Of a stretch of 7,471 bases of DNA, positions 1 through 7,471 are shown piece by piece (position 1 is the first letter of the stretch; each line of letters begins with the position of its first letter). A program made the position numbers and the translations under genes. The stretch comes from Candidatus Vampirococcus lugosii (lineage in GTDB: Bacteria; Patescibacteriota; Gracilibacteria; Absconditabacterales; Absconditicoccaceae). The stretch is taken from positions 1-7,471 of the forward strand of contig NZ_JAEDAM010000059.1 of assembly GCF_018420025.1 (NCBI RefSeq), read 5' to 3'. The notes beneath the pieces were generated by a model. It did not search any database, was not told the DNA's origin, and saw only the letters and a program-made list of their open reading frames with translations.

Positions 1-276
1 ATTATAACACTATTTTTTAATTGAGTTTGGATTTCTGATCCTCATAATTGATATAGAGTAATTAATATACAAGCATTAAAAAAAATTAAAATTACAAGTG
101 ATTGAATGACTTATGCATCTGAAATTTTGGATAGTATTAGAATTAATAAGTTTGAATATAAAGAAATTCCTGTAAATATTAATTATACTGATTATAGTAT
201 AAAAAAATGACAAAAAAATTTAAATGCATTCAAAATATTAATAGAATTAATTTATAAAAAACTTTTTTTTAGATAA
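1..276 (+). CDS. Family-2 glycosyltransferase (dolichyl-phosphate/undecaprenyl-phosphate sugar transferase-like), 3' partial
   Basis: Frame 1 is open from base 1 to TAA at 274-276 when TGA=Gly. The translation is ...SDPHNGYRVINIQALKKIKITSDGMTYASEILDSIRINKFEYKEIPVNINYTDYSIKKGQKNL.... This matches the GT2 C-terminal pattern: D-x-x-x-G-F/Y-R, then a G-x-x-F/Y-x-x-E-I/L segment, then (I/V)-x-E-(I/V)-P-(I/V)-x-Y. The G of NGYR is TGA at 49-51. The 5' end lies outside the window. Confidence 0.7.
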
Positions 277-311
277 GTAAAATTTAATTTATTTAGAATT
301 AATAATATTTT

Positions 312-776
312 ATGAGAATAATAAGTAAAAATAAACAAGCATTATTAAATTATGATATAGTAGAAAAATTTGAAACTTGAATAGTATTGAAATGATTTGA
401 AGTTAAAGCAATAAAAACTTGAAATATTAATATAAAAGAATCTATAGTAAAAATTTATAATGATGGACAAATATATATTACAAATATGTCCGTTCCTTTA
501 TACAAAAAAACAAATTTCAAAATAGTTTCATGGTATGAACCTAAAGGAACTAGGAAATTGTTGATGCATAAAAGACAAATAAGAAAATTAGCTGAAAGAA
601 CTCACAAAACATGACTTACTATGATAGCATTAAAAATTTATGAAAATAAAAAAAACTTGATAAAAATTGAAATATGACTTGGCAAATTGAGAAAAAAAGT
701 AGAAAAAAAACAAATTCTTAAAGAAAGGGATGTAAATAAACAAGCTCAAAGAGATATAAAAAATTTAAGAATTTAA
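312..776 (+). CDS. smpB: SsrA-binding protein SmpB (tmRNA trans-translation cofactor), 154 aa
   Basis: ATG at 312 follows an in-frame TAA at 303; the stop is TAA at 774-776. The translation is MRIISKNKQALLNYDIVEKFETGIVLKGFEVKAIKTGNINIKES...TRKLLMHKRQIRKLAERTHKTGLTMIALKIYENKKNLIKIEIGLGKLRKK.... It is collinear with E. coli SmpB as I recall it: FEAGLALQGWEVKSLRAGK ... TRKLLL ... REGYTVVAL ... KIGVAKGKK. All five in-frame TGAs (the first at 378-380) fall on those conserved glycines. Confidence 0.95.
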
Positions 777-785
777 AAATTTAAA

Positions 786-813
786 TTGCAAAATAAAAAA
801 AATATATTATAAT
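786..813 (+). promoter_or_regulatory. Candidate sigma-70-type promoter for the 855-1997 gene (TTGCAA, 16-nt spacer, TATAAT)
   Basis: TTGCAA at 786-791 and TATAAT at 808-813 sit in the largest intergenic gap of the window (777-854), about 40 nt upstream of the ATG at 855. Matches like this arise easily by chance in sequence this AT-rich. Confidence 0.3.
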
Positions 814-854
814 ATATTATCAATTAATTTTTTTATTATTAAATAATTATATAA

Positions 855-1997
855 ATGTTAATATTATTAGCCTTGATAATAGTAAGTATAGGTTGAGCAA
901 TAGTTTTTACTGTATACTCGCTATTTAATCCATTTATAGAAAATATGGGAGATATAAAAAATTATAATATAGCATATTATTGAGCTATTTCTTCATTGGA
1001 AAGATGAAATTTAGCTTTAAGATACCGCGATGCATGATTTGAATGATCTTGATGATGGACATGAACAACTGATTTTGGTCCAAATAGTGATCATCTTAAA
1101 AATGATTATTGAAGACTTGCAACTCAAAATAATTCAATGTACTGGGAAATTAAATCTAGAGAATGAATCACTATTCCTAGTGCTTGAGATTGAAATGTTG
1201 ATTTAGCTTTACAATATACTTGAACAACATATGAACATAGTAAAGATTACAATAAACTTTGATATAATATGATTGAAGAATTTATTTTGACTTTAGATGA
1301 TACTAATGAAAATGATGCATATTCTTCAAGCACTACTTCAAATAAAAATATTGTTAATTTAGATTGAATAGATGCAACATTTAGACTACCTCCTTATATT
1401 AAAGATAAATTTTCTGGTCCTACTAATCCATTATGTACTTTGGCTGATTGTGATCTTTCATGAGATTGAATAGATAATGATATAGTTGTAAATTGGGATA
1501 TATCTGGTAAACATAATAGTAATAATTTTAGTTTAAAACCTAGTATAGAAGTTAGTTATGCTGCTGGAAGTGTGTGAAATAAAGATACTGCTATTAGAGA
1601 AACTCATGTTAATAATGATAAAACAATAGAATTTTATAATTCAATGAATCCTACTTCATCTTTACCTTCTCATGATCCTGATAAAAACAATATAATTCCG
1701 TCAAATCATGCTTTTTCTGGATCAAATTTTGACTATATTTTTAGTAATACTAATGAAGATCTTAGTATTAGTTTTTCATTAGTAAATTTATTAGCAACTA
1801 GTGTTATGTATGATTCTAACAATAGAATTTATCCTTTTTTGGAATACAAAATTAAATTTGATTGAGTAAGTGAAGTACCAGCTCGTTTTTATAATATAAG
1901 TTGAATATGAGAAGTTTGAGAATATCAAGTAAAAATAATACAGAGAAAACCTACAAGTGAAAGAAATATTGCATCTGATTTTACTATATTGTTTTAA
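855..1997 (+). CDS. Hypothetical membrane-anchored protein, 380 aa, no family recognised (weak PilX/ComGG-like N-terminus)
   Basis: ATG at 855 directly follows an in-frame TAA at 852. The frame stays open to TAA at 1995-1997 only if the many in-frame TGAs are sense codons. The track ORF 1644-1865 is an internal fragment in the same frame. The N-terminus MLILLALIIVSIGGAIVFTVYSLF is a single hydrophobic helix. The remainder is rich in N, D, S and T and looks extracytoplasmic. The segment NIAYYGAISSLERGNLALRY loosely resembles the A-x-x-A-E-A-G-L-E segment that follows the helix in PilX_N-type minor pseudopilins. Confidence 0.8.
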
Positions 1998-2009
1998 ACA
2001 ATATTGTTT
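1986..2009. repeat. Interlocked palindromes / weak hairpin spanning the stop codon of the 855-1997 gene
   Basis: ATATTGTTT-T-AAACAATAT occupies 1986-2004 as 9-nt inverted arms around a single central T. It shares its right arm with the perfect 14-bp palindrome AAACAATATTGTTT at 1996-2009. ATATTGTTT therefore occurs twice in direct orientation, at 1986 and 2001. T-rich sequence (TGTTTAATATTT) follows. The element ends 19 nt before the holB ATG. Confidence 0.4.
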
Positions 2010-2027
2010 AATATTTAAATTTAAAAT

Positions 2028-2972
2028 ATGTATATATATTGAAATGAAATTTGACAAGAAGTTTTACAAAAACATTTTTCAAGTTTGTTTAATTGAGAAG
2101 ATTTAGTAAATTTTTTTATATTATCTTGAGCTAGTTGAGTTTGAAAAAAAACTTTAATAAAAAAACTTGCCAAAGAATATTTATGAAAATATTATGATAG
2201 TGATTTTTTTGTTATTAAAGATTATACTAAATATTTATGAAAAAAACATTCTTTAAAAATTGGGGAAGATTGAAAACTAAAAAGTATTGAATTATTAAAT
2301 AAAGAAAAAGTTGTTGATTATACAGTAAGATGGATTATAGAATGGTTAAGTAAAACTTCACCTAGTGCTTTCAAAATACTTTTGATAGAAAATATTGATA
2401 GATTGACGGCAGAAGCTGGAAATGCACTACTAAAAACATTTGAAGAATCTACAAATAAAATAATATTAATATGAACTACTCAAAATCATAAAAATTTATT
2501 AAATACTATTTTATCCAGAGCTAATATAATTAAATTTGAAGAATCTTGAAAAGAAAATCTAAAAAAATATTTAGATGAAAATTTTGGTAATATTGATGAT
2601 TCTTCCAAAGAAATTTTGTGTAAATTGTCTTGAAATAGAATTTGAATATCATATCATTTATTAAATGATTTTAGTAAGTGAGATTTTACATTTTCTGATA
2701 TAAAAAATAATTTTGATAAATTTATAAAATTATCAAAATATGAATGATTTTATAATGAAAAAATTTCTATATTAAAAATATTTAGTAAATATAATATACT
2801 TGAAATTATATTTGATTGACTTATTCATTATTATGAATCTTTAAATAATTATATTATAGTTGATAAAATAATTTATTGTAAAAAATTATTATCAGCTAAT
2901 GTTTGATTAGAGAATATATTATTTTATTTTGTGTTATCATTAGATAAATTAAATGTTAAAGAAAATAAATAG
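2028..2972 (+). CDS. holB: DNA polymerase III subunit delta-prime (clamp-loader AAA+ subunit), 314 aa
   Basis: ATG at 2028 follows an in-frame TAA at 2022; the stop is TAG at 2970-2972. The translation is MYIYGNEIGQEVLQKHFSSLFNGEDLVNFFILSGASGVGKKTLIKKLAKEYLG...FKILLIENIDRLTAEAGNALLKTFEESTNKIILIGTTQNHKNLLNTILSRANIIKFEE. It carries the clamp-loader signatures: I-G-Q near the N-terminus, a Walker A G-x-x-G-x-G-K-x-T, a D-x-L-T-x-x-A-x-N-A-L-L-K-T-x-E-E box, and T-I-x-S-R. The IGQ glycine and all three Walker A glycines are TGA codons. Confidence 0.85.
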
Positions 2973-3354
2973 ATTGAATCGTAAAGATATAAATTTTTTG
3001 TTTAGAAATCAAAATATTATTTATTGAAAATATTTTTCCTTTTTTTATTATAAACAATATCCAAATAGAAAATATAATCAATTTTCTATACAAGTTCCAA
3101 CTAAACTTTCAAAACTTGCAGTAGATAGAAATTATATAAAAAGAATTCTTATGCATTATATAAGAGAAAATTCATATGATATAAATAAATTTGGTGACAA
3201 ATATTACAAAATATTTGTAATATTCAATAAAAAATATATTCCTGAATTTAAAAAAAAGATTGAAACAAAAGAAAAAAAAGTTATATATAAAACTATTATA
3301 GAAAATTTTAGATTTAGTTTTAACAATATTAACATTAAATTATGAAACAAGTAA
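2953..3354 (+). CDS. rnpA: Ribonuclease P protein component, 133 aa
   Basis: ATG at 2953 follows an in-frame TAA at 2950. The translation is MLKKINRLNRKDINFLFRNQNIIYGKYFSFFYYKQ...FSIQVPTKLSKLAVDRNYIKRILMHYIRE.... It has the RnpA N-terminal L-x-K-x-N-R-L...F-x-x-(V/L)-F pattern and the RNR motif A-V-x-R-N-x-x-K-R-x-x-R/H. The track ORF 3151-3345 is an internal fragment. Its TGA at 3343-3345 is Gly, and the true stop is TAA at 3352-3354. The gene overlaps holB by 20 nt. Confidence 0.85.
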
Positions 3355-4619
3355 AAAATAAATTCACCAAATTATTAGATAAATGAATGAATAAAATTTC
3401 TAATATAAAAAATGAAAAAGAAAAAGAATTTGAAAAAATTGAAAAAATAGATAAACAAATTGAAGAGAATAAAAATAAAAAAACAAAATTACCAAAATTT
3501 GATTTAGATAAATCAGATAAAAATGATACTAGTAGATTTTTGAAATTTTGGTTGATATGAGCAATGGTTGCATATATATCTTTTGTAGTTTTCAATTCAT
3601 TAAATTTATTATATTTGATTATTGCTGCATATATAATATCTATTGCTATGGAAATACTTATTGAAGGCTTTCAAAAATTTTTACCTAGAGTATTATGAAT
3701 AATAATTTCTTATTTATTATTATTAGTTTTATTATTAAGTTGATTTATAATAATAATTCCTTTTGTATTAGCTCAAAGTGCTGATATAATGCAATCATTT
3801 ATAGATATAATATCTTGAATTCAAAATGATTTAAAATCAAATTGATTGGAGTATGTAATTAGTAATTCAAATTTCATTCCTTGATTTTTGAAAAATACGA
3901 TTTTGGATCAAATTAATGACAGAAGTGTTATAATAGCGATTCAAACTGCTATTCAAGATAATATTAGTCAAATTGCTAGTATATGAACTGGTTTTATAAA
4001 TAATGTATGATCTATTGCCGTTAATATAATTTGATGATTTTTTTCTGCTATATCTCAAGTATTATTAGTTTTTGTATTAGCAATATTCTTATCTCTTCAA
4101 AAAGATTCTGTTATGAATTTTATATGAGCAATGTCATCCAACAAAGATTATGTAATAATTAAATTAAAAAAACTTTACAAAAAATTATGATTTTGGTTAA
4201 AATGACAATTTTTATTAAGTATATTTATATTTATTACAGTATTTATTTTATTGAATACAATATCATTTTTTGGGATGGATTTACCAAATAAATTTACTTT
4301 AGCATTAATTTCTTGATTAACTGAATTTATTCCTATTTTGGGACCTGTACTTGGTGCTATACCTGCTATGTTGGTAGCTATTTCTGAATTTTGATTTATA
4401 TGATTTATTACAATTGTTGTTATATATACTTTGATACAAGGATTTGAAAATTATATATTAGTTCCTTTAGTTATGAATCAAGCTTTATGAGTAAGTCCTC
4501 TTTTGATAATTATAGCTATGTTGCTTTGATGATCTTTAATGTGATTTGTTTGAATAGTTTTGTCAGTTCCTATAGCTGTAATATCTAATTTAATTTTTGA
4601 AGATATTATTAAAGAATAA
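3342..4619 (+). CDS. AI-2E family transporter (PerM/UPF0118 permease), 425 aa
   Basis: ATG at 3342 follows an in-frame TAA at 3336; the stop is TAA at 4617-4619. A K/E-rich N-terminal region of about 65 aa is followed by several hydrophobic helices. The C-terminal region GLTEFIPILGPVLGAIPAMLVAISEFGFIGFITIVVIYTLIQGFENYILVPLVMNQALGVSPLLIIIAMLLGGSLMGFVGIVLSVPIA matches the AI-2E signature: F-I-P-x-x-G-P-x-x-G-x-I-P, then Q-x-x-E-N-x-I-L-x-P, then P-L, then G-x-x-G-x-x-L-x-V-P. An alternative start is the ATG at 3387. The gene overlaps rnpA by 13 nt. Confidence 0.9.
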
Positions 4620-4647
4620 TTTTTAATTAAATAAAAATTCATGTATT

Positions 4648-5178
4648 ATGAATATAGAAAAATTCTTGTGAAGTAAAACAAGAGCATGAATATTAAAATA
4701 TCTTTTATTCAAAAGACAAGGTATTTCTATGAGAGCTTTGGAAAATGATCTAAATTGGTCATTTAGTGCAATAAAAAAGCAAGTTGATAGTCTTTTGGAA
4801 GCATGAATTATATTTATTGATAAAGATATTAATAAATGGTCTATATATTTAGATAAAGATATTTCTGATCTAATTAGAAAAATTTTTTTGTATAGTTTAG
4901 AATTTGAATTAAAAAAAACATTTGAAAAATATGACACTGTAATTAGTAATTTTTTTTTATGAAAAGTTTTTGGTAATAAAATAGATTATGATATTATTGT
5001 AATATACAATATATGTGAAGAAGAAATATTACAACAAATAAAAAAAGATATATCTAATATATTTTCAGATTTTTATATAGAAAATATTGCAGTAGTTTTT
5101 ATGTCAAGTGAAGACTTCAAAAAAAGATATCGTTTGGCTGATAAATTTGTTCTTTCTGTTATTACAAATTGTAAATAA
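4648..5178 (+). CDS. Winged-helix DNA-binding protein (ArsR/MarR-like N-terminus) with possible minimal-nucleotidyltransferase-like C-terminal half, 176 aa
   Basis: ATG at 4648 follows an in-frame TAA at 4624; the stop is TAA at 5176-5178. The N-terminus LGSKTRAGILKYLLFKRQGISMRALENDLNWSFSAIKKQVDSLLEAGII fits the wHTH pattern: K-x-R-x-x-I-L, then S-x-R-x-L, then a recognition helix, then L-x-x-A-G-(L/I)-I. The C-terminal half contains LGKVFGNKIDYDIIVIY, which resembles a G-(S/K)...D-x-D nucleotidyltransferase-fold motif. The domain assignment is tentative. Confidence 0.65.
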
Positions 5179-5200
5179 TTTATATTTTTATTATATTTTT

Positions 5201-5950
5201 ATGTCTTTTTATCCAAATAATCCACAATTTTTACATGAAATGGTTATAGATTCTATCTTATCTATACAAAATTATAGGAATTATCCAGAAGGAAAAAATC
5301 CAAGAATTATATTTTGTCCTAGTGATTATTATATTTATTCTTCATGAATTATGGCTACAGCTTACAATATTTTATTAAAAAATAAAAAATTAAAAAAAAT
5401 TATTATTATTTGATATGATCAGAATATTGATTGATTTAATTATATACAGGAAAATAAATTATATAATACTTTATGAGTTTTTCCAGTAGATAATGAATTA
5501 AAAAATAAATCAAATTTAGATTTTTTAAATCTAAGAAAAAAAGAAGAAATTAATATGGAAAATATAGATTCTCAACTTCCATTTATCAAAACTACTATCA
5601 AATTTGAAACTATTTTTCCTATAATTATTTGAAAAACAAATAAATATATAAAATTAGTAAATTTTCTTAAAAATATTTTGGAAAATGATGAAACTGTATG
5701 AATTATTTTTAGTTCAAATCTTTATGAATCAGATAAATATAATAAAAATATAGATATAAATCTAACTAATTCAATAATTAATTTTGATCTCAAAAATATA
5801 AATAAATCAATGAGTAAATATTATACTATAATAAAAATATATTCAAATTTATCAAAAAAAATGTGAATGAAACCATTTTTACAACTAAATTTAAATTCAT
5901 CAAATTTTTGAATTAAACCTGTAAAATGATATTTTAGTTTTGTAAGTTAA
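5201..5950 (+). CDS. Memo-like / AmmeMemoRadiSam system protein B family protein, 249 aa
   Basis: I chose the ATG at 5201. The track's ATG at 5108 would overlap the upstream gene by 71 nt. The family normally begins close to its F-Y-P motif, as MSFYPNNPQFL does here. The stop is TAA at 5948-5950. The segment PRIIFCPSDYYIYSSGIMATAYNIL is collinear with the family segment A-I-I-x-P-H-A-G-Y-x-Y-S-G-x-x-A-A-x-A-Y. SQLPFIK matches E-H-S-x-E-x-Q-L-P-F-L, and the C-terminal KGYFSFV matches V-G-Y-A-S. The track ORF 5108-5347 ends at a TGA that is Gly in YSSGIMA. Confidence 0.75.
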
Positions 5951-5953
5951 AAA

Positions 5954-6412
5954 ATGCCTGCATTAATATTGGAAAATATTCGTAGTTCATATAATGTTGG
6001 AAATATTATTCGTACTGCCGATGCATTCAATTTTGATATTATAATTTCTTGATATACTCCCTCTCCCAAAAATAAAACTTCTATTTGTAAAACTTCGCTT
6101 TGAGCTGAAAAAAATGTTAAAATTTATGAATTTTATAATACTAAAAAAGCTATTTTATTTGCAAAAGAAAAATATAAATATCTAATTGCATCAGAAATAA
6201 ATAAATCTGCCAAATCTCTAAATAATTTTGATATAAAAAATAAAAATGATTTAGCTATTGTTTTATGAAATGAAGTAAATTGAGTTTTACAAGAAACTTT
6301 ATCATTTGTGGATGAAATAATTTATATACCTATGTTTTGAATTAAAGAATCATTAAATGTATGACAAGCATCTAGTATATTAATGTGGGAATATTACAAA
6401 AAGTATTTGTAA
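5954..6412 (+). CDS. SpoU/TrmH-family (SPOUT) RNA 2'-O-methyltransferase, 152 aa
   Basis: ATG at 5954 lies 3 nt after the upstream stop; the stop is TAA at 6410-6412. The translation is MPALILENIRSSYNVGNIIRTADAFNF...LAIVLGNEVNGVLQETLSFVDEIIYIPMFGIKESLNVGQASSILMWEY. It carries the three SpoU motifs: N-x-G-x-I-x-R-T-A, L-G-N-E-x-x-G, and I-P-M-x-G-x-x-x-S-L-N-V-x-x-A. The glycines in LGNEVNG (6266-6268 and 6281-6283) and in PMFG (6338-6340) are TGA. Confidence 0.9.
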
Positions 6413-6444
6413 AAATATTTTATTTTAAAAATAAAAAATATATT

Positions 6445-7296
6445 ATGTTATATTCAATAATTAAAAAAGTTTACAACTCCAAAACAATAAAAAATAATAA
6501 TTTTAGAAAAATTTTATTTTTCCATAATTTGATTATCAAAAAAATTAATAAATGAAAAAAAATATATAAAATAAATATTTGAGATTTAAAATTAAAATTT
6601 AAATCTGATCTTTCAAATTCTTATATGACCAAAATTATTTATATGAGATGATATTATGAAAAAAAAACTTCAAAATATATTATAAATAATCTAAAAAAAT
6701 GAGATATATTTTTGGATGTATGAGCAAATTTATGATACTACTCATTATTAGCATCAAAAAAAAATTGAGATACTTGAAAAGTTTTTTCTTTTGAACCTGT
6801 AAAAAGTAATTATGAAAATTTGATAGAAAATATAAAAATAAATAATTTAAAAAATATAGAATATTTAAATATATGACTTTGAAATGAAAATAAAGAATTT
6901 GATATAAATATAAATCCAAACAATATTTGAAATAATTCTGTTTTATTAGATCATAATTATTGATATAAAGAAAAAATAAAAATAAAAAGATTTGATGATT
7001 TAAATTTGGATATTGATAAATCAAAAATTAAATTTATTAAAATTGATGTAGAATGATTTGAATATGAAGCTATGAAATGAATGGAAAAACTTATTGATTT
7101 AAATAAAAATTTACAAATAATACTTGAATTTTCTCCTGAATTTTATCATCATTTTGATGAAAATTATTGATTAAGATTTGCTCAATTTATATATTCAAAA
7201 TGATTTGAAACATTTGATATTAACAATAATTTTAAAAAAATTAATTTAATTGACGATAATAATTATATACAAAAAAATATTTTATTAAAAAAATAA
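6445..7296 (+). CDS. FkbM-family SAM-dependent methyltransferase, 283 aa
   Basis: The ATG at 6445 is the first after the SpoU stop; the stop is TAA at 7294-7296. The translation ...KKGDIFLDVGANLGYYSLLASKKNGDTGKVFSFEPVKSNYENLIENIKINNLKNIEYLNIGLGNE...IKFIKIDVEGFEYEAMKGMEKL...LEFSPE matches the FkbM pattern: D-V-G-A-N-x-G, then V-x-(A/S)-F-E-P, then L-x-x-N, then I-K-I-D-V-E-G-x-E. The glycines in DVGANLG (6721-6723 and 6733-6735) and in DVEG (7054-7056) are TGA. Confidence 0.9.
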
Positions 7297-7308
7297 AAAA
7301 TAAAAAAA

Positions 7309-7340
7309 CACTTTAAATAAATTTTTAAAGTGCTTTTTAT
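7309..7340. terminator. Bidirectional rho-independent terminator between convergent genes
   Basis: CACTTTAAA at 7309-7317 and TTTAAAGTG at 7324-7332 form a 9-bp stem with a 6-nt loop. CTTTTTATT follows on the plus strand. An A-run at 7302-7308 precedes it, giving a U-tract for the minus-strand transcript. It sits 13 nt after the FkbM stop and 22 nt from the minus-strand stop. Confidence 0.6.
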
Positions 7341-7361
7341 TAAAACTAATTTATTATAGAT

Positions 7362-7471
7362 TTATTCATTGTCAATTTCATCTTCATCTCATTCATCATT
7401 GACCTCTTCTATTTCATTTTCATCATTTTCTCATTCAATTTCAATCCATTTTTCTTTGTCCAATTCATAAT
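7362..7471 (-). CDS. Unidentified protein, 3' partial, with a strongly acidic C-terminal tail
   Basis: The reverse strand reads ...YELDKEKWIEIEGENDENEIEEVNDEGDEDEIDNE and ends at TAA (complement of 7362-7364). It has two in-frame TGA=Gly codons (complement of 7389-7391 and 7431-7433). The plus strand shows a strong TTC/ATC/ATT periodicity. Only 36 codons are visible, so no product can be assigned. Confidence 0.5.

What the first reader, a model, noticed from the sequence alone, without database searches (positions are those of the whole stretch)
1..7471. TGA is a glycine codon throughout: the window follows genetic code 25, not the standard code or code 4
Under the standard code the window has no ORF longer than 114 aa, and most of the ORFs it does have are antisense junk. 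Reading through TGA gives ten contiguous plus-strand genes with recognisable families. The identity of the amino acid can be read from where TGA falls. In SmpB it falls on FE-T-[TGA]-IVLK-[TGA]-FEVKAIKT-[TGA]-N, against FEAGLALQGWEVKSLRAGK in E. coli as I recall it. In HolB it falls on I-[TGA]-QE and the Walker A glycines. In SpoU it falls on L-[TGA]-NEVN-[TGA] and IPMF-[TGA]. In FkbM it falls on DV-[TGA]-ANL-[TGA] and DVE-[TGA]. In the glycosyltransferase it falls on N-[TGA]-YR. These are invariant or near-invariant glycines, and tryptophan (code 4, Mollicutes) would break every motif. TGG is still used for Trp, for example SWYEP in SmpB. TGA never ends a gene: ten stops are TAA and one is TAG. 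UGA-to-Gly recoding is known only from Gracilibacteria and Absconditabacteria (SR1). That gives a phylogenetic placement and explains why default gene calling fails here.
Basis: partly seen in the sequence, partly recalled or inferred. Interest (0 to 1): 0.85.

Follow-up and report, generated by a model that had tools for sequence, protein, structure and literature searches.

The report
Known UGA-to-glycine code in Vampirococcus
The window is a contig of the published predatory bacterium Candidatus Vampirococcus lugosii, and its genes do read TGA as glycine, but this recoding has already been reported for this genome and its phylum.

Summary

- **Observation:** Under code 11 the longest ORF is 114 aa, which is within the range of shuffled sequence. 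With TGA read as sense, ten contiguous plus-strand ORFs cover 95% of the window. They contain 107 in-frame TGA and no in-frame TAA or TAG.
- **Amino acid is Gly, not Trp:**
  - Seven Pfam families score 136 bits higher in total with Gly than with Trp.
  - In an HMM built only from distant standard-code AI-2E homologues, Gly is the best of 20 residues and Trp ranks 18th.
  - TGA columns hold 32% Gly and 0.6% Trp, like the GGN control columns.
  - In the Absconditicoccus praedator orthologues, window TGA pairs with TGA 27 times, GGN 12 times and TGG never.
- **Source:** The window matches a 7471-bp contig of Ca. Vampirococcus lugosii (Absconditabacteria). NCBI's protein has Gly at all 22 TGA sites of one gene. 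The 2021 genome paper states the reassignment and used table 25.
- **Not testable here:** tRNA-Gly(UCA) and loss of RF2 in the parent genome.
- **Side note:** Relatives place CGA/CGG where the window has TGG. This supports the published prediction that CGA and CGG encode Trp in this lineage. The window has neither codon.

The parts
1..276 (+). 3' end (91 codons) of a family-2 glycosyltransferase (PpgS/DPMS-like). It has 4 in-frame TGA and a TAA stop.
   Evidence: L001 extends the gene to 359 aa with PF00535 and DUF2304. NCBIfam PpgS E=5.9e-16. P. furiosus DPMS (5mlz) has Gly opposite HN[TGA]YR.
312..776 (+). smpB (SsrA-binding protein), 154 aa, 5 TGA, TAA stop.
   Evidence: Pfam SmpB 135.2 bits with Gly and 115.1 with Trp. 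NCBIfam equivalog NF003843 scores 135, above its cut-off of 130. PDB homologues have Gly at 4 of the 5 TGA sites and Gly or Ala at the fifth.
855..1997 (+). Hypothetical protein, 380 aa, with a hydrophobic N-terminus and no family. It has 22 TGA and a TAA stop.
   Evidence: No Pfam hit, and no NCBIfam hit near a curated cut-off. The same ORF is called in the Logan contigs L001 and L002.
2028..2972 (+). holB-like DNA polymerase III delta' subunit, 314 aa, 17 TGA including all three Walker A glycines (GASGVGKKT). TAG stop.
   Evidence: Pfam DNA_pol3_delta2 73.5 bits with Gly and 65.1 with Trp. The AAA match begins at residue 31 with Gly but at residue 95 with Trp. TIGR00678 holB E=4.8e-22, below its curated cut-off. 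Syntenic in A. praedator.
2953..3354 (+). rnpA (RNase P protein component), 133 aa, 2 TGA, TAA stop. It overlaps holB by 20 nt.
   Evidence: Pfam Ribonuclease_P 42.9 bits (cut-off 22.3). It does not discriminate between Gly and Trp.
3342..4619 (+). AI-2E family transporter (PerM-like), 425 aa, 22 TGA, TAA stop.
   Evidence: Pfam 137.0 bits with Gly and 97.4 with Trp. Identical to NCBI protein P0001 of Ca. Vampirococcus lugosii, which has Gly at all 22 TGA sites. The 20-residue HMM test and the column tabulation used this gene.
4648..5178 (+). Hypothetical protein, 176 aa, with only a weak N-terminal winged-helix-like resemblance. It has 4 TGA and a TAA stop.
   Evidence: Only sub-threshold hits (HVO_A0114 and Lrs14-type HTH). 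An orthologue sits at the same position in A. praedator, with 111 of 175 residues identical.
5201..5950 (+). Memo / AmmeMemoRadiSam system protein B family, 249 aa, 9 TGA, TAA stop.
   Evidence: Pfam Memo: Gly 54.1, Ser 47.2, Ala 46.9, Cys 46.5, Trp 41.9 bits. TIGR04336 scores 58.8, above its cut-off of 26.
5954..6412 (+). SpoU/TrmH-family RNA 2'-O-methyltransferase, 152 aa, 6 TGA, TAA stop.
   Evidence: Pfam SpoU_methylase 106.5 bits with Gly and 80.2 with Trp. PDB homologues have Gly at 4 of the 6 TGA sites.
6445..7296 (+). FkbM-family methyltransferase, 283 aa from ATG 6445 (303 aa if the GTG at 6385 is the start), 16 TGA, TAA stop.
   Evidence: Pfam Methyltransf_21 70.4 bits with Gly and 43.5 with Trp. 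TIGR01444 scores 100.9, above its cut-off of 37.7.
7309..7332 (.). AT-rich 9-bp hairpin (CACTTTAAA, 6-nt loop, TTTAAAGTG) between the convergent genes. An A-run lies upstream and a T-run downstream. It is probably a bidirectional intrinsic terminator.
   Evidence: MFE -11.5 kcal/mol, z=-5.2, and 0 of 200 shuffles fold as well. The consensus scan misses it because it requires at least 3 G-C pairs.
7362..7471 (-). 3' end of a convergent minus-strand gene with an acidic C-terminus (...WIEIExENDENEIEEVNDExDEDEIDNE). It has 2 in-frame TGA and a TAA stop at 7362-7364.
   Evidence: Frame translation. No family was tested.

Best explanation
The window is a complete 7471-bp contig of Candidatus Vampirococcus lugosii, an epibiotic predatory bacterium of the phylum Absconditabacteria (SR1) in the Candidate Phyla Radiation.

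Its genes are translated with UGA as a glycine codon. UGG remains tryptophan, and UAA and UAG remain the only stops. This is NCBI translation table 25. At 19% G+C, UGA is the main glycine codon: 107 UGA against 24-25 GGN (24 with the refined gene starts; 25 with the mechanical ORF bounds).

Inferred from the literature on this lineage, and not shown in the window: UGA is read by a dedicated tRNA with a UCA anticodon that carries the glycine acceptor identity elements (G1:C72, C2:G71, G3:C70, U73), and release factor 2 has been lost.

The window encodes ordinary housekeeping genes: the tail of a GT2 glycosyltransferase, smpB, a holB-like gene, rnpA, an AI-2E transporter, Memo, a SpoU methyltransferase, an FkbM methyltransferase, and two hypothetical proteins.
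For: TGA is sense:
- ORF coverage rises from 8.8% to 95.3%. The 426-codon stop-free run exceeds the shuffle maximum of 150. In frame there are 0 TAA, 0 TAG and 107 TGA.

TGA is Gly:
- Summed over seven Pfam families, Gly scores 135.8 bits more than Trp.
- In an HMM of 64 distant AI-2E homologues, Gly scores 223.0, Ala 208.1 and Trp 181.6 (18th of 20).
- Homologue residues at TGA columns are 32.3% Gly and 0.6% Trp. GGN control columns are 30.1% Gly. TGG control columns are 0% Gly and 19.8% Trp. Background is 6.9% Gly and 1.6% Trp.
- Solved structures have Gly opposite TGA in SmpB (4 of 5 sites), SpoU (4 of 6 sites) and DPMS.
- Orthologous codons in A. praedator opposite 60 window TGA: TGA 27, GGN 12, TGG 0, and the rest mostly Ala, Asn, Ser or Asp. 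Of 18 orthologue GGN codons, 12 pair with window TGA.
- Proteome composition is 5.56% Gly and 0.51% Trp under TGA=Gly, against an implausible 1.02% Gly and 5.05% Trp under TGA=Trp.

Origin:
- NCBI protein P0001, named Ca. Vampirococcus lugosii, lies on a contig of exactly 7471 bp. It equals g5 with Gly at all 22 TGA sites.
- The Logan contigs from SRR13241708 and SRR13241709 match the window with 8 mismatches in 7403 nt and 0 in 6695 nt.
- The genome paper states UGA=Gly and used Prodigal with table 25 (PMC8080830).
- Taxonomy places the species in Absconditibacteriota.

Machinery, shown for the lineage type only:
- A tRNA with a UCA anticodon and G1:C72, C2:G71, G3:C70, U73 is present in a TGA-recoded MAG locus, L060.
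- PMC8629427 reports that the two Gracilibacteria species for which no UGA meaning could be inferred lacked the expected tRNA-Gly(UCA) gene and instead encoded RF2. Codetta inferred UGA=Gly in 6 of 6 Absconditabacteria species.
- Proteomic proof exists for a BD1-5 bacterium (PMC4032931).
Against: Nothing in the window contradicts this reading. The limits are as follows.

- The window has no tRNA gene, and neither do the overlapping Logan contigs L001 and L002. The parent genome's tRNA-Gly(UCA) and the absence of prfB were therefore not checked here.
- About two thirds of the homologue residues at TGA columns are not Gly. GGN columns show the same proportion, so this reflects family variability rather than the code.
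- RnpA does not discriminate.
- The alignment used a query with Gly already substituted, which is a mild bias.
- There is no protein-level evidence for Vampirococcus itself.
Confidence: 0.97

Rival explanations
1. TGA encodes tryptophan (translation table 4, as in Mollicutes and several insect endosymbionts).
For: TGA is clearly sense and the DNA is extremely AT-rich, as in table-4 organisms. Automated pipelines did call these genes this way: the Logan copy P0002 has Trp at all 22 sites, and most close relatives in the protein database have 4-6.6% Trp.
Against: - Trp never scores better than masking in any family tested, and it totals 135.8 bits less than Gly.
- Trp ranks 18th of 20 in the independent HMM.
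- Homologues have 0.6% Trp at TGA columns.
- None of 60 window TGA codons pairs with TGG in the orthologue.
- It would imply a proteome with 5.05% Trp and 1.02% Gly.
- It destroys the Walker A motif.
Confidence: 0.01
2. TGA is still a stop codon. On this view the region is decayed pseudogenes or non-coding DNA, or the TGA codons are isolated recoding events such as selenocysteine or programmed read-through.
For: Under code 11 the ORF lengths cannot be told apart from those of shuffled sequence.
Against: - Across 2357 codons in one frame there are 107 TGA but no TAA or TAG, while the other frames have about 200 TAA and TAG each.
- Seven ORFs match curated families end to end.
- Gene order and protein sequence are conserved in A. 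praedator, where TGA is likewise in frame.
- At 4.5% of codons, on Gly columns, the density is far too high for Sec or read-through.
- Two independent assemblies give the same sequence.
Confidence: 0.005
3. This is a refinement rather than a contradiction. The organism's code may be table 25 plus CGA and CGG reassigned from Arg to Trp, as Codetta predicted for Absconditabacteria. 'Code 25' would then be an incomplete description of the genome, even though it translates this window correctly.
For: - The prediction is in PMC8629427.
- In relatives, the codon opposite the window's TGG Trp is CGG (L118), CGA (L119), CGA twice (L120), and CGA in A. praedator SpoU (L003). It is never AGA.
- Standard-code homologues have Tyr, Trp or Phe at those columns and no Arg.
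Against: - The window has no in-frame CGA or CGG in 2367 codons, and there are none in the three upstream genes of L001. For Vampirococcus itself these codons may simply be extinct or unassigned.
- The evidence is five codon correspondences at three alignment columns in relatives, not a genome-wide test.
- No tRNA evidence was examined here.
Confidence: 0.55

Closest known systems
[quoted passage not shown] 2013 and Rinke et al. 2013 as cited in PMC8080830 and PMC8629427
   Same: UGA is a sense codon for Gly, UGG is Trp, and UAA and UAG are stops. The genome is low in G+C and belongs to Absconditabacteria. The window meets every feature that can be read from coding sequence.
   Different: Nothing differs in the window. 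The tRNA-Gly(UCA) and the loss of RF2 could not be checked in the parent genome.
The published Candidatus Vampirococcus lugosii genome (Moreira et al. 2021, PMC8080830; BioProject PRJNA678638)
   Same: It is the same DNA. The NCBI protein lies on a 7471-bp contig and is identical to the window's g5. The authors annotated with table 25 and state that UGA is reassigned to glycine.
   Different: None. The finding rediscovers the published annotation.
Translation table 4 (Mycoplasmatales, Entomoplasmatales and insect endosymbionts: UGA=Trp)
   Same: UGA is reassigned from stop to sense in a reduced, AT-rich genome, and default code-11 gene calling fails in the same way.
   Different: The amino acid is Gly, not Trp. 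Table-4 calls of these genes in public databases are mistranslations.
Candidatus Absconditicoccus praedator locus CP054059.1:947630-968895 (L003)
   Same: It carries a syntenic holB-rnpA-AI-2E-hypothetical-Memo-SpoU block, has in-frame TGA throughout, and uses only TAA or TAG stops in the called genes.
   Different: - It has 30% G+C, against 19% in the window.
- It uses GGN more often: 149 GGN to 222 TGA.
- It carries CGA codons.
- A tmRNA gene follows SpoU there, where the window has the FkbM gene.
- smpB and g2 are not in the syntenic block.
Codetta-predicted extended Absconditabacteria code (UGA=Gly plus CGA/CGG=Trp; Shulgina & Eddy 2021, PMC8629427)
   Same: It applies to the same clade. 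Relatives show CGA or CGG opposite the window's TGG.
   Different: The window has no CGA or CGG, so it neither supports nor contradicts this for Vampirococcus.

Membership tests
Genetic code 25 (UGA=Gly; SR1/Gracilibacteria) | UGA occurs in frame inside conserved protein-coding genes and never terminates them. | tested here: met
   There are 107 in-frame TGA in ten ORFs. All 11 stops are TAA or TAG. Coverage rises from 8.8% to 95.3%.
Genetic code 25 (UGA=Gly; SR1/Gracilibacteria) | UGA positions correspond to glycine in homologues from standard-code organisms. | tested here: met
   - Pfam: Gly scores 135.8 bits more than Trp in total.
- Gly is the best of 20 residues in the independent HMM.
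- TGA columns have 32.3% Gly against a 6.9% background.
- PDB alignments agree.
Genetic code 25 (UGA=Gly; SR1/Gracilibacteria) | UGA is synonymous with GGN between related genomes. | tested here: met
   Window TGA pairs with orthologue TGA 27 times, GGN 12 times and TGG 0 times. Of 18 orthologue GGN codons, 12 pair with window TGA.
Genetic code 25 (UGA=Gly; SR1/Gracilibacteria) | UGG is retained as tryptophan. | tested here: met
   TGG pairs with TGG in 5 of 7 positions. TGG columns have 0% Gly and are aromatic, with Tyr, Trp or Phe. The sample is small: 12-13 TGG codons (12 with the refined gene starts, 13 with the mechanical ORF bounds).
Genetic code 25 (UGA=Gly; SR1/Gracilibacteria) | The organism belongs to Absconditabacteria or Gracilibacteria. 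| tested here: met
   The window is identical to a Ca. Vampirococcus lugosii contig and protein. The lineage is Candidatus Absconditibacteriota.
Genetic code 25 (UGA=Gly; SR1/Gracilibacteria) | The genome encodes a tRNA(UCA) with glycine identity elements (G1:C72, C2:G71, G3:C70, U73). | not testable with these tools
   There is no tRNA in the window or in L001-L003, and the rest of the parent genome could not be reached. A tRNA of exactly this kind was found in one TGA-recoded MAG, L060. PMC8629427 treats this tRNA as the expected UGA decoder in the clade.
Genetic code 25 (UGA=Gly; SR1/Gracilibacteria) | Release factor 2 (prfB) is absent. | not testable with these tools
   This needs the whole genome. 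PMC8629427 notes that the two Gracilibacteria with no inferred UGA meaning encode RF2.
Genetic code 25 (UGA=Gly; SR1/Gracilibacteria) | Peptide-level demonstration of Gly at UGA. | not testable with these tools
   This has been shown only for a BD1-5/SN-2 bacterium (PMC4032931), not for Vampirococcus.
Genetic code 4 (UGA=Trp) | UGA positions correspond to tryptophan or aromatic columns and interchange with UGG. | tested here: not met
   TGA columns have 0.6% Trp. No TGA pairs with TGG. Trp ranks 18th of 20. Trp never scores better than masking in any Pfam family.
Selenocysteine or programmed UGA read-through | Rare, site-specific UGA at Cys/Sec positions in a few genes, with UGA otherwise a stop. 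| tested here: not met
   TGA makes up 4.5% of all codons, occurs in every gene and never serves as a stop. For Memo, Cys substitution scores 46.5 against 54.1 for Gly.

The most novel reading that the evidence does not exclude
The lineage's true code may go beyond NCBI table 25, with CGA and CGG also meaning tryptophan. This is a 2021 computational prediction that, as far as I found, has no proteomic confirmation. Vampirococcus, at 19% G+C, would then be the extreme case in which these codons have all but disappeared: there are none among the roughly 3,400 codons seen in the window and the upstream part of L001. Relatives place CGA or CGG exactly where this window has TGG, at columns that are aromatic in standard-code homologues.
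Probability: 0.55. Interest if true: 0.3.

Novelty: already known. Interest (0 to 1): 0.1.

Why it matters
For biology this adds nothing new. UGA=Gly in Absconditabacteria and Gracilibacteria has been known since 2013, and it is stated explicitly for this genome (PMC8080830).

Its practical value is as a positive control for the scan. A reader using sequence alone correctly inferred an alternative code, the amino acid and the phylum.

It also shows a real data-quality problem. Most close relatives of these proteins in large public protein collections are translated with table 4, so every UGA glycine appears as tryptophan. That corrupts profiles, structure predictions and composition statistics for this clade.

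The CGA/CGG and TGG correspondences give a small independent corroboration of a published but unconfirmed further reassignment.

Tried and rejected
- **Contig look-ups.** A code-11 ORF fragment and the NCBI protein P0001 were not on record. The Logan table-4 version, P0002, did work.
- **Parent genome in GTDB.** A degenerate DNA pattern for the SmpB peptide WYEPKGTRKLLMHK found nothing in the GTDB representative genomes, so the parent genome is not in that collection.
- **tRNA pattern scan.** A structural pattern for tRNA(UCA) with a Gly acceptor end returned 114 loci, almost all chance matches from unrelated phyla. Ten carry a tRNA(UCA), but only L060 lies in a TGA-recoded contig.
- **20-residue Pfam scan.** I planned to score fused proteins with each of the 20 residues against Pfam. 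I dropped this as wasteful and used a local HMM of distant AI-2E homologues instead.
- **Masked PDB searches.**
  - The X-masked GT2 query found no solved structure.
  - The X-masked HolB query lost the P-loop region.
  - The X-masked FkbM query hit only a remote Trm5-like protein, which has Phe opposite the first motif TGA and Gly opposite the second.
- **Literature.** Campbell et al. 2013 is not held in the library.
- **Terminator scan.** The consensus terminator scan found nothing at the 3' end because it requires at least 3 G-C pairs. Direct folding does show a hairpin.
- **GTDB class name.** I could not confirm that 'JAEDAM01' is this genome's WGS prefix, so I make no such claim.

Full report
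**1. The observation**

The window is 7471 bp with 19.4% G+C. Under the bacterial standard code there are only eight ORFs of at least 60 aa. The longest is 114 aa and lies on the minus strand, and five of the eight are antisense. The longest stop-free run is 120 codons, which is what shuffled sequence gives (mean 78.6, max 129 in 300 shuffles).

If TGA is not a stop, ten contiguous plus-strand ORFs appear. They cover 95.3% of the window, against 8.8% before, and the longest run becomes 426 codons, against a shuffle maximum of 150.

Within these ORFs the reading frame has 0 TAA, 0 TAG and 107 TGA. The other two frames have 148 and 167 TAA, and 70 and 52 TAG. All ten plus-strand genes end in TAA (9) or TAG (1).

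**2. What the genes are**

With TGA masked as X, so that neither reading is favoured, seven ORFs match curated Pfam families above their gathering scores:

| ORF | Family |
|---|---|
| 312-776 | SmpB |
| 2028-2972 | DNA_pol3_delta2 |
| 2953-3354 | Ribonuclease_P |
| 3342-4619 | AI-2E_transport |
| 5201-5950 | Memo |
| 5954-6412 | SpoU_methylase |
| 6445-7296 | Methyltransf_21 (FkbM) |

- The partial ORF at 1-276 is the tail of a 359-aa family-2 glycosyltransferase, as a longer overlapping contig shows (NCBIfam PpgS).
- Two ORFs (855-1997 and 4648-5178) have no family, so 'recognisable families' holds for eight of the ten.

**3. Which amino acid**

I ran five independent tests.

(a) *Curated profiles.* Bit scores for masked X / Gly / Trp:

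| Family | X | Gly | Trp |
|---|---|---|---|
| SmpB | 116.8 | 135.2 | 115.1 |
| DNA_pol3_delta2 | 65.7 | 73.5 | 65.1 |
| AI-2E | 102.7 | 137.0 | 97.4 |
| SpoU | 87.0 | 106.5 | 80.2 |
| Methyltransf_21 | 45.2 | 70.4 | 43.5 |
| Memo | 44.3 | 54.1 | 41.9 |
| RnpA | 41.8 | 42.9 | 40.6 |

Gly exceeds Trp by 135.8 bits in total, and Trp never scores better than masking. For Memo, Cys, Ser and Ala are intermediate (46.5, 47.2 and 46.9). The generic AAA model aligns the P-loop (from residue 31) only when TGA is Gly, which gives GASGVGKKT.

(b) *All 20 residues.* I built an HMM from only the 64 distant AI-2E homologues (under 35% identity, 6.4% Gly and 1.5% Trp at the median). Gly ranks first (223.0 bits), followed by Ala (208.1) and Ser (198.3). 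Trp ranks 18th (181.6).

(c) *Column tabulation with controls*:

| Columns | Gly | Trp |
|---|---|---|
| Window TGA | 32.3% | 0.6% |
| Window GGN (control) | 30.1% | 3.5% |
| Window TGG (control) | 0% | 19.8% (plus 29% Tyr) |
| Background | 6.9% | 1.6% |

TGA columns behave like GGN columns. About two thirds of the residues at TGA columns are not Gly, and the same is true of GGN columns.

(d) *Solved structures from standard-code organisms.*
- SmpB has Gly at four of the five TGA sites and Gly or Ala at the fifth.
- SpoU has Gly at four of six. The other two sites fall on a variable column and a Ser column.
- P. furiosus DPMS has Gly opposite HN[TGA]YR and opposite the three TGA sites in LL-x-SRFIK-xx. 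That query had Gly already substituted.

(e) *Codon-level comparison.* The syntenic holB-rnpA-AI-2E-hypothetical-Memo-SpoU block of Candidatus Absconditicoccus praedator was aligned to the window.
- Of 60 aligned window TGA codons, 27 pair with TGA, 12 with GGN and none with TGG. The rest pair mostly with Ala, Asn, Ser or Asp.
- Of 18 orthologue GGN codons, 12 pair with window TGA.
- TGG pairs with TGG in 5 of 7 cases.

*Composition* agrees. The proteome is 5.56% Gly and 0.51% Trp under TGA=Gly, against 1.02% Gly and 5.05% Trp under TGA=Trp.

**4. Where the window comes from**

The masked AI-2E protein retrieved an NCBI protein named 'AI-2E family transporter [Candidatus Vampirococcus lugosii]'. 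Its longest contig is 7471 bp, exactly the window's length. It is identical to the window's gene and has Gly at all 22 TGA sites.

Two Logan assemblies (SRR13241708 and SRR13241709) carry the same DNA, with 8 mismatches in 7403 nt and 0 in 6695 nt.

The species belongs to the phylum Candidatus Absconditibacteriota. The genome paper (Moreira et al. [quoted passage not shown]

**5. Mechanism**

*Shown here:* UGA is a sense codon equivalent to GGN. UGG is Trp. UAA and UAG are the stops.

*Inferred from the lineage literature:* decoding is by a tRNA(UCA) with Gly identity elements, together with loss of RF2. PMC8629427 reports that the two Gracilibacteria species without an inferred UGA meaning lacked the expected tRNA-Gly(UCA) gene and encoded RF2, and Codetta inferred UGA=Gly in 6 of 6 Absconditabacteria species. 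Proteomic validation exists for a BD1-5 bacterium (PMC4032931).

I could not test this in the parent genome. The window and its overlapping contigs have no tRNA, and the genome is not in the GTDB representative set.

A structural pattern scan for such a tRNA mostly returned chance hits. One locus, L060, comes from an unnamed MAG with 37% G+C and is clearly TGA-recoded: long-ORF coverage is 0.12 under code 11 and 0.60 with TGA as sense. It carries a 71-nt tRNA with anticodon UCA, G1:C72, C2:G71, G3:C70 and U73. That is the expected machinery, seen on sequence in one recoded genome.

**6. Rivals**

- Table 4 (UGA=Trp) fails every test above.
- UGA as a stop, with pseudogenes, selenocysteine or read-through, cannot be reconciled with 107 in-frame TGA, no in-frame TAA or TAG, end-to-end family matches and cross-species conservation.
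- Assembly error is excluded by two independent assemblies.
- The only live refinement is that table 25 may be incomplete for the lineage (section 7).

**7. Things noticed**

(i) *CGA and CGG.* Shulgina & Eddy predicted that Absconditabacteria also read CGA and CGG as Trp.
- The window has no in-frame CGA or CGG in 2367 codons, and there are none in the three upstream genes of L001. It says nothing on this point.
- In relatives, the codon opposite the window's TGG is CGA in A. praedator SpoU, CGG in L118, CGA in L119 and CGA twice in L120. It is never AGA.
- Standard-code homologues have Tyr, Trp or Phe at these columns.
- This is a small independent corroboration of that prediction.

(ii) *Database mistranslation.* Most close relatives in the large protein collection carry 4-6.6% Trp and depleted Gly, and the Logan copy of this gene has Trp at all 22 TGA sites. 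These are table-4 mistranslations.

(iii) *Terminator-like hairpin.* An AT-rich 9-bp hairpin with flanking A- and T-runs lies between the convergent genes at 7309-7332 (-11.5 kcal/mol, z=-5.2). It is probably a bidirectional terminator, and the G-C-based consensus scan misses it.

(iv) *tmRNA in the relative.* In A. praedator a tmRNA gene follows SpoU. In the window, smpB lies upstream and no tmRNA is present.

**8. Verdict**

Novelty is 'already known': the window is a textbook instance of translation table 25 in a genome whose paper reports it. Interest is low. The finding is useful mainly as a validation of the scan and as a reminder that table-4 gene calling corrupts protein databases for this clade.

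Noticed in passing
window 6388-6390 (TGG in SpoU 'ILMWEYY') and 3549-3551 / 4194-4196 (TGG at AI-2E residues 70 and 285); L003 about 13070; L118, L119 and L120 AI-2E genes: Relatives have CGA or CGG (called 'Arg') exactly opposite the window's TGG Trp codons, at columns that are Tyr, Trp or Phe in standard-code homologues. There are five cases and the codon is never AGA. This supports the published Codetta prediction that CGA and CGG encode Trp in Absconditabacteria. The window has no in-frame CGA or CGG in 2367 codons, so for Vampirococcus these codons may be essentially extinct.
   Followed up: partly
Proteins P0002 and P0004-P0024 (relatives of window 3342-4619): Most close relatives in the public protein collection have 4-6.6% Trp and depleted Gly. 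The Logan copy of this very gene has Trp at all 22 TGA sites. These proteins were called with table 4 instead of table 25, so their UGA glycines are stored as tryptophans.
   Followed up: partly
window 7309-7332 (context 7297-7345): A 9-bp AT-rich hairpin (CACTTTAAA/TTTAAAGTG, 6-nt loop) lies between the convergent genes, with an A-run upstream and a T-run downstream. MFE is -11.5 kcal/mol and z=-5.2. It is probably a bidirectional intrinsic terminator. The consensus scan missed it because it has only 2 G-C pairs.
   Followed up: partly
L060 2420-2493 (CALMFT010000033.1, unnamed MAG, 37% G+C): A tRNA with a UCA anticodon and glycine acceptor identity (G1:C72, C2:G71, G3:C70, U73) lies at the end of a tRNA cluster (Ser, Asp, Ala, Tyr, Ile, Arg) in a TGA-recoded contig. 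The MAG is labelled only 'uncultured bacterium' and is probably an unrecognised member of the UGA=Gly clade.
   Followed up: partly
L003 13511-13893 (A. praedator CP054059.1): A tmRNA gene (tag peptide ADKNLRLSAAQSYAVAA) lies directly downstream of the SpoU orthologue. In the Vampirococcus window that position holds an FkbM methyltransferase, smpB is 5 kb upstream, and no tmRNA is detected.
   Followed up: no
window 855-1997 and 4648-5178: Two ORFs have no recognisable family. One is a 380-aa protein with a hydrophobic N-terminus and 22 TGA. The other is a 176-aa protein with only a faint winged-helix resemblance; it is conserved in position and sequence in A. praedator (111 of 175 residues identical).
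   Followed up: no
window 2953-2972, 3342-3354 and 6385-6412: Adjacent genes overlap. holB and rnpA overlap by 20 nt, and rnpA and AI-2E by 13 nt. SpoU and FkbM overlap by 28 nt only if the GTG at 6385 is used as the start rather than the ATG at 6445. The packing is very tight, consistent with co-transcription of the whole plus-strand block.
   Followed up: no
L005, L017, L025, L050, L053, L065, L071, L082 and L092: Nine loci from unrelated phyla show no sign of recoding but carry normal-length tRNAs with a UCA anticodon and a GCG...CGC-U acceptor end. ARAGORN labels them 'SeC'. They may be opal-suppressor-like tRNAs or mobile-element tRNAs. I did not examine them.
   Followed up: no
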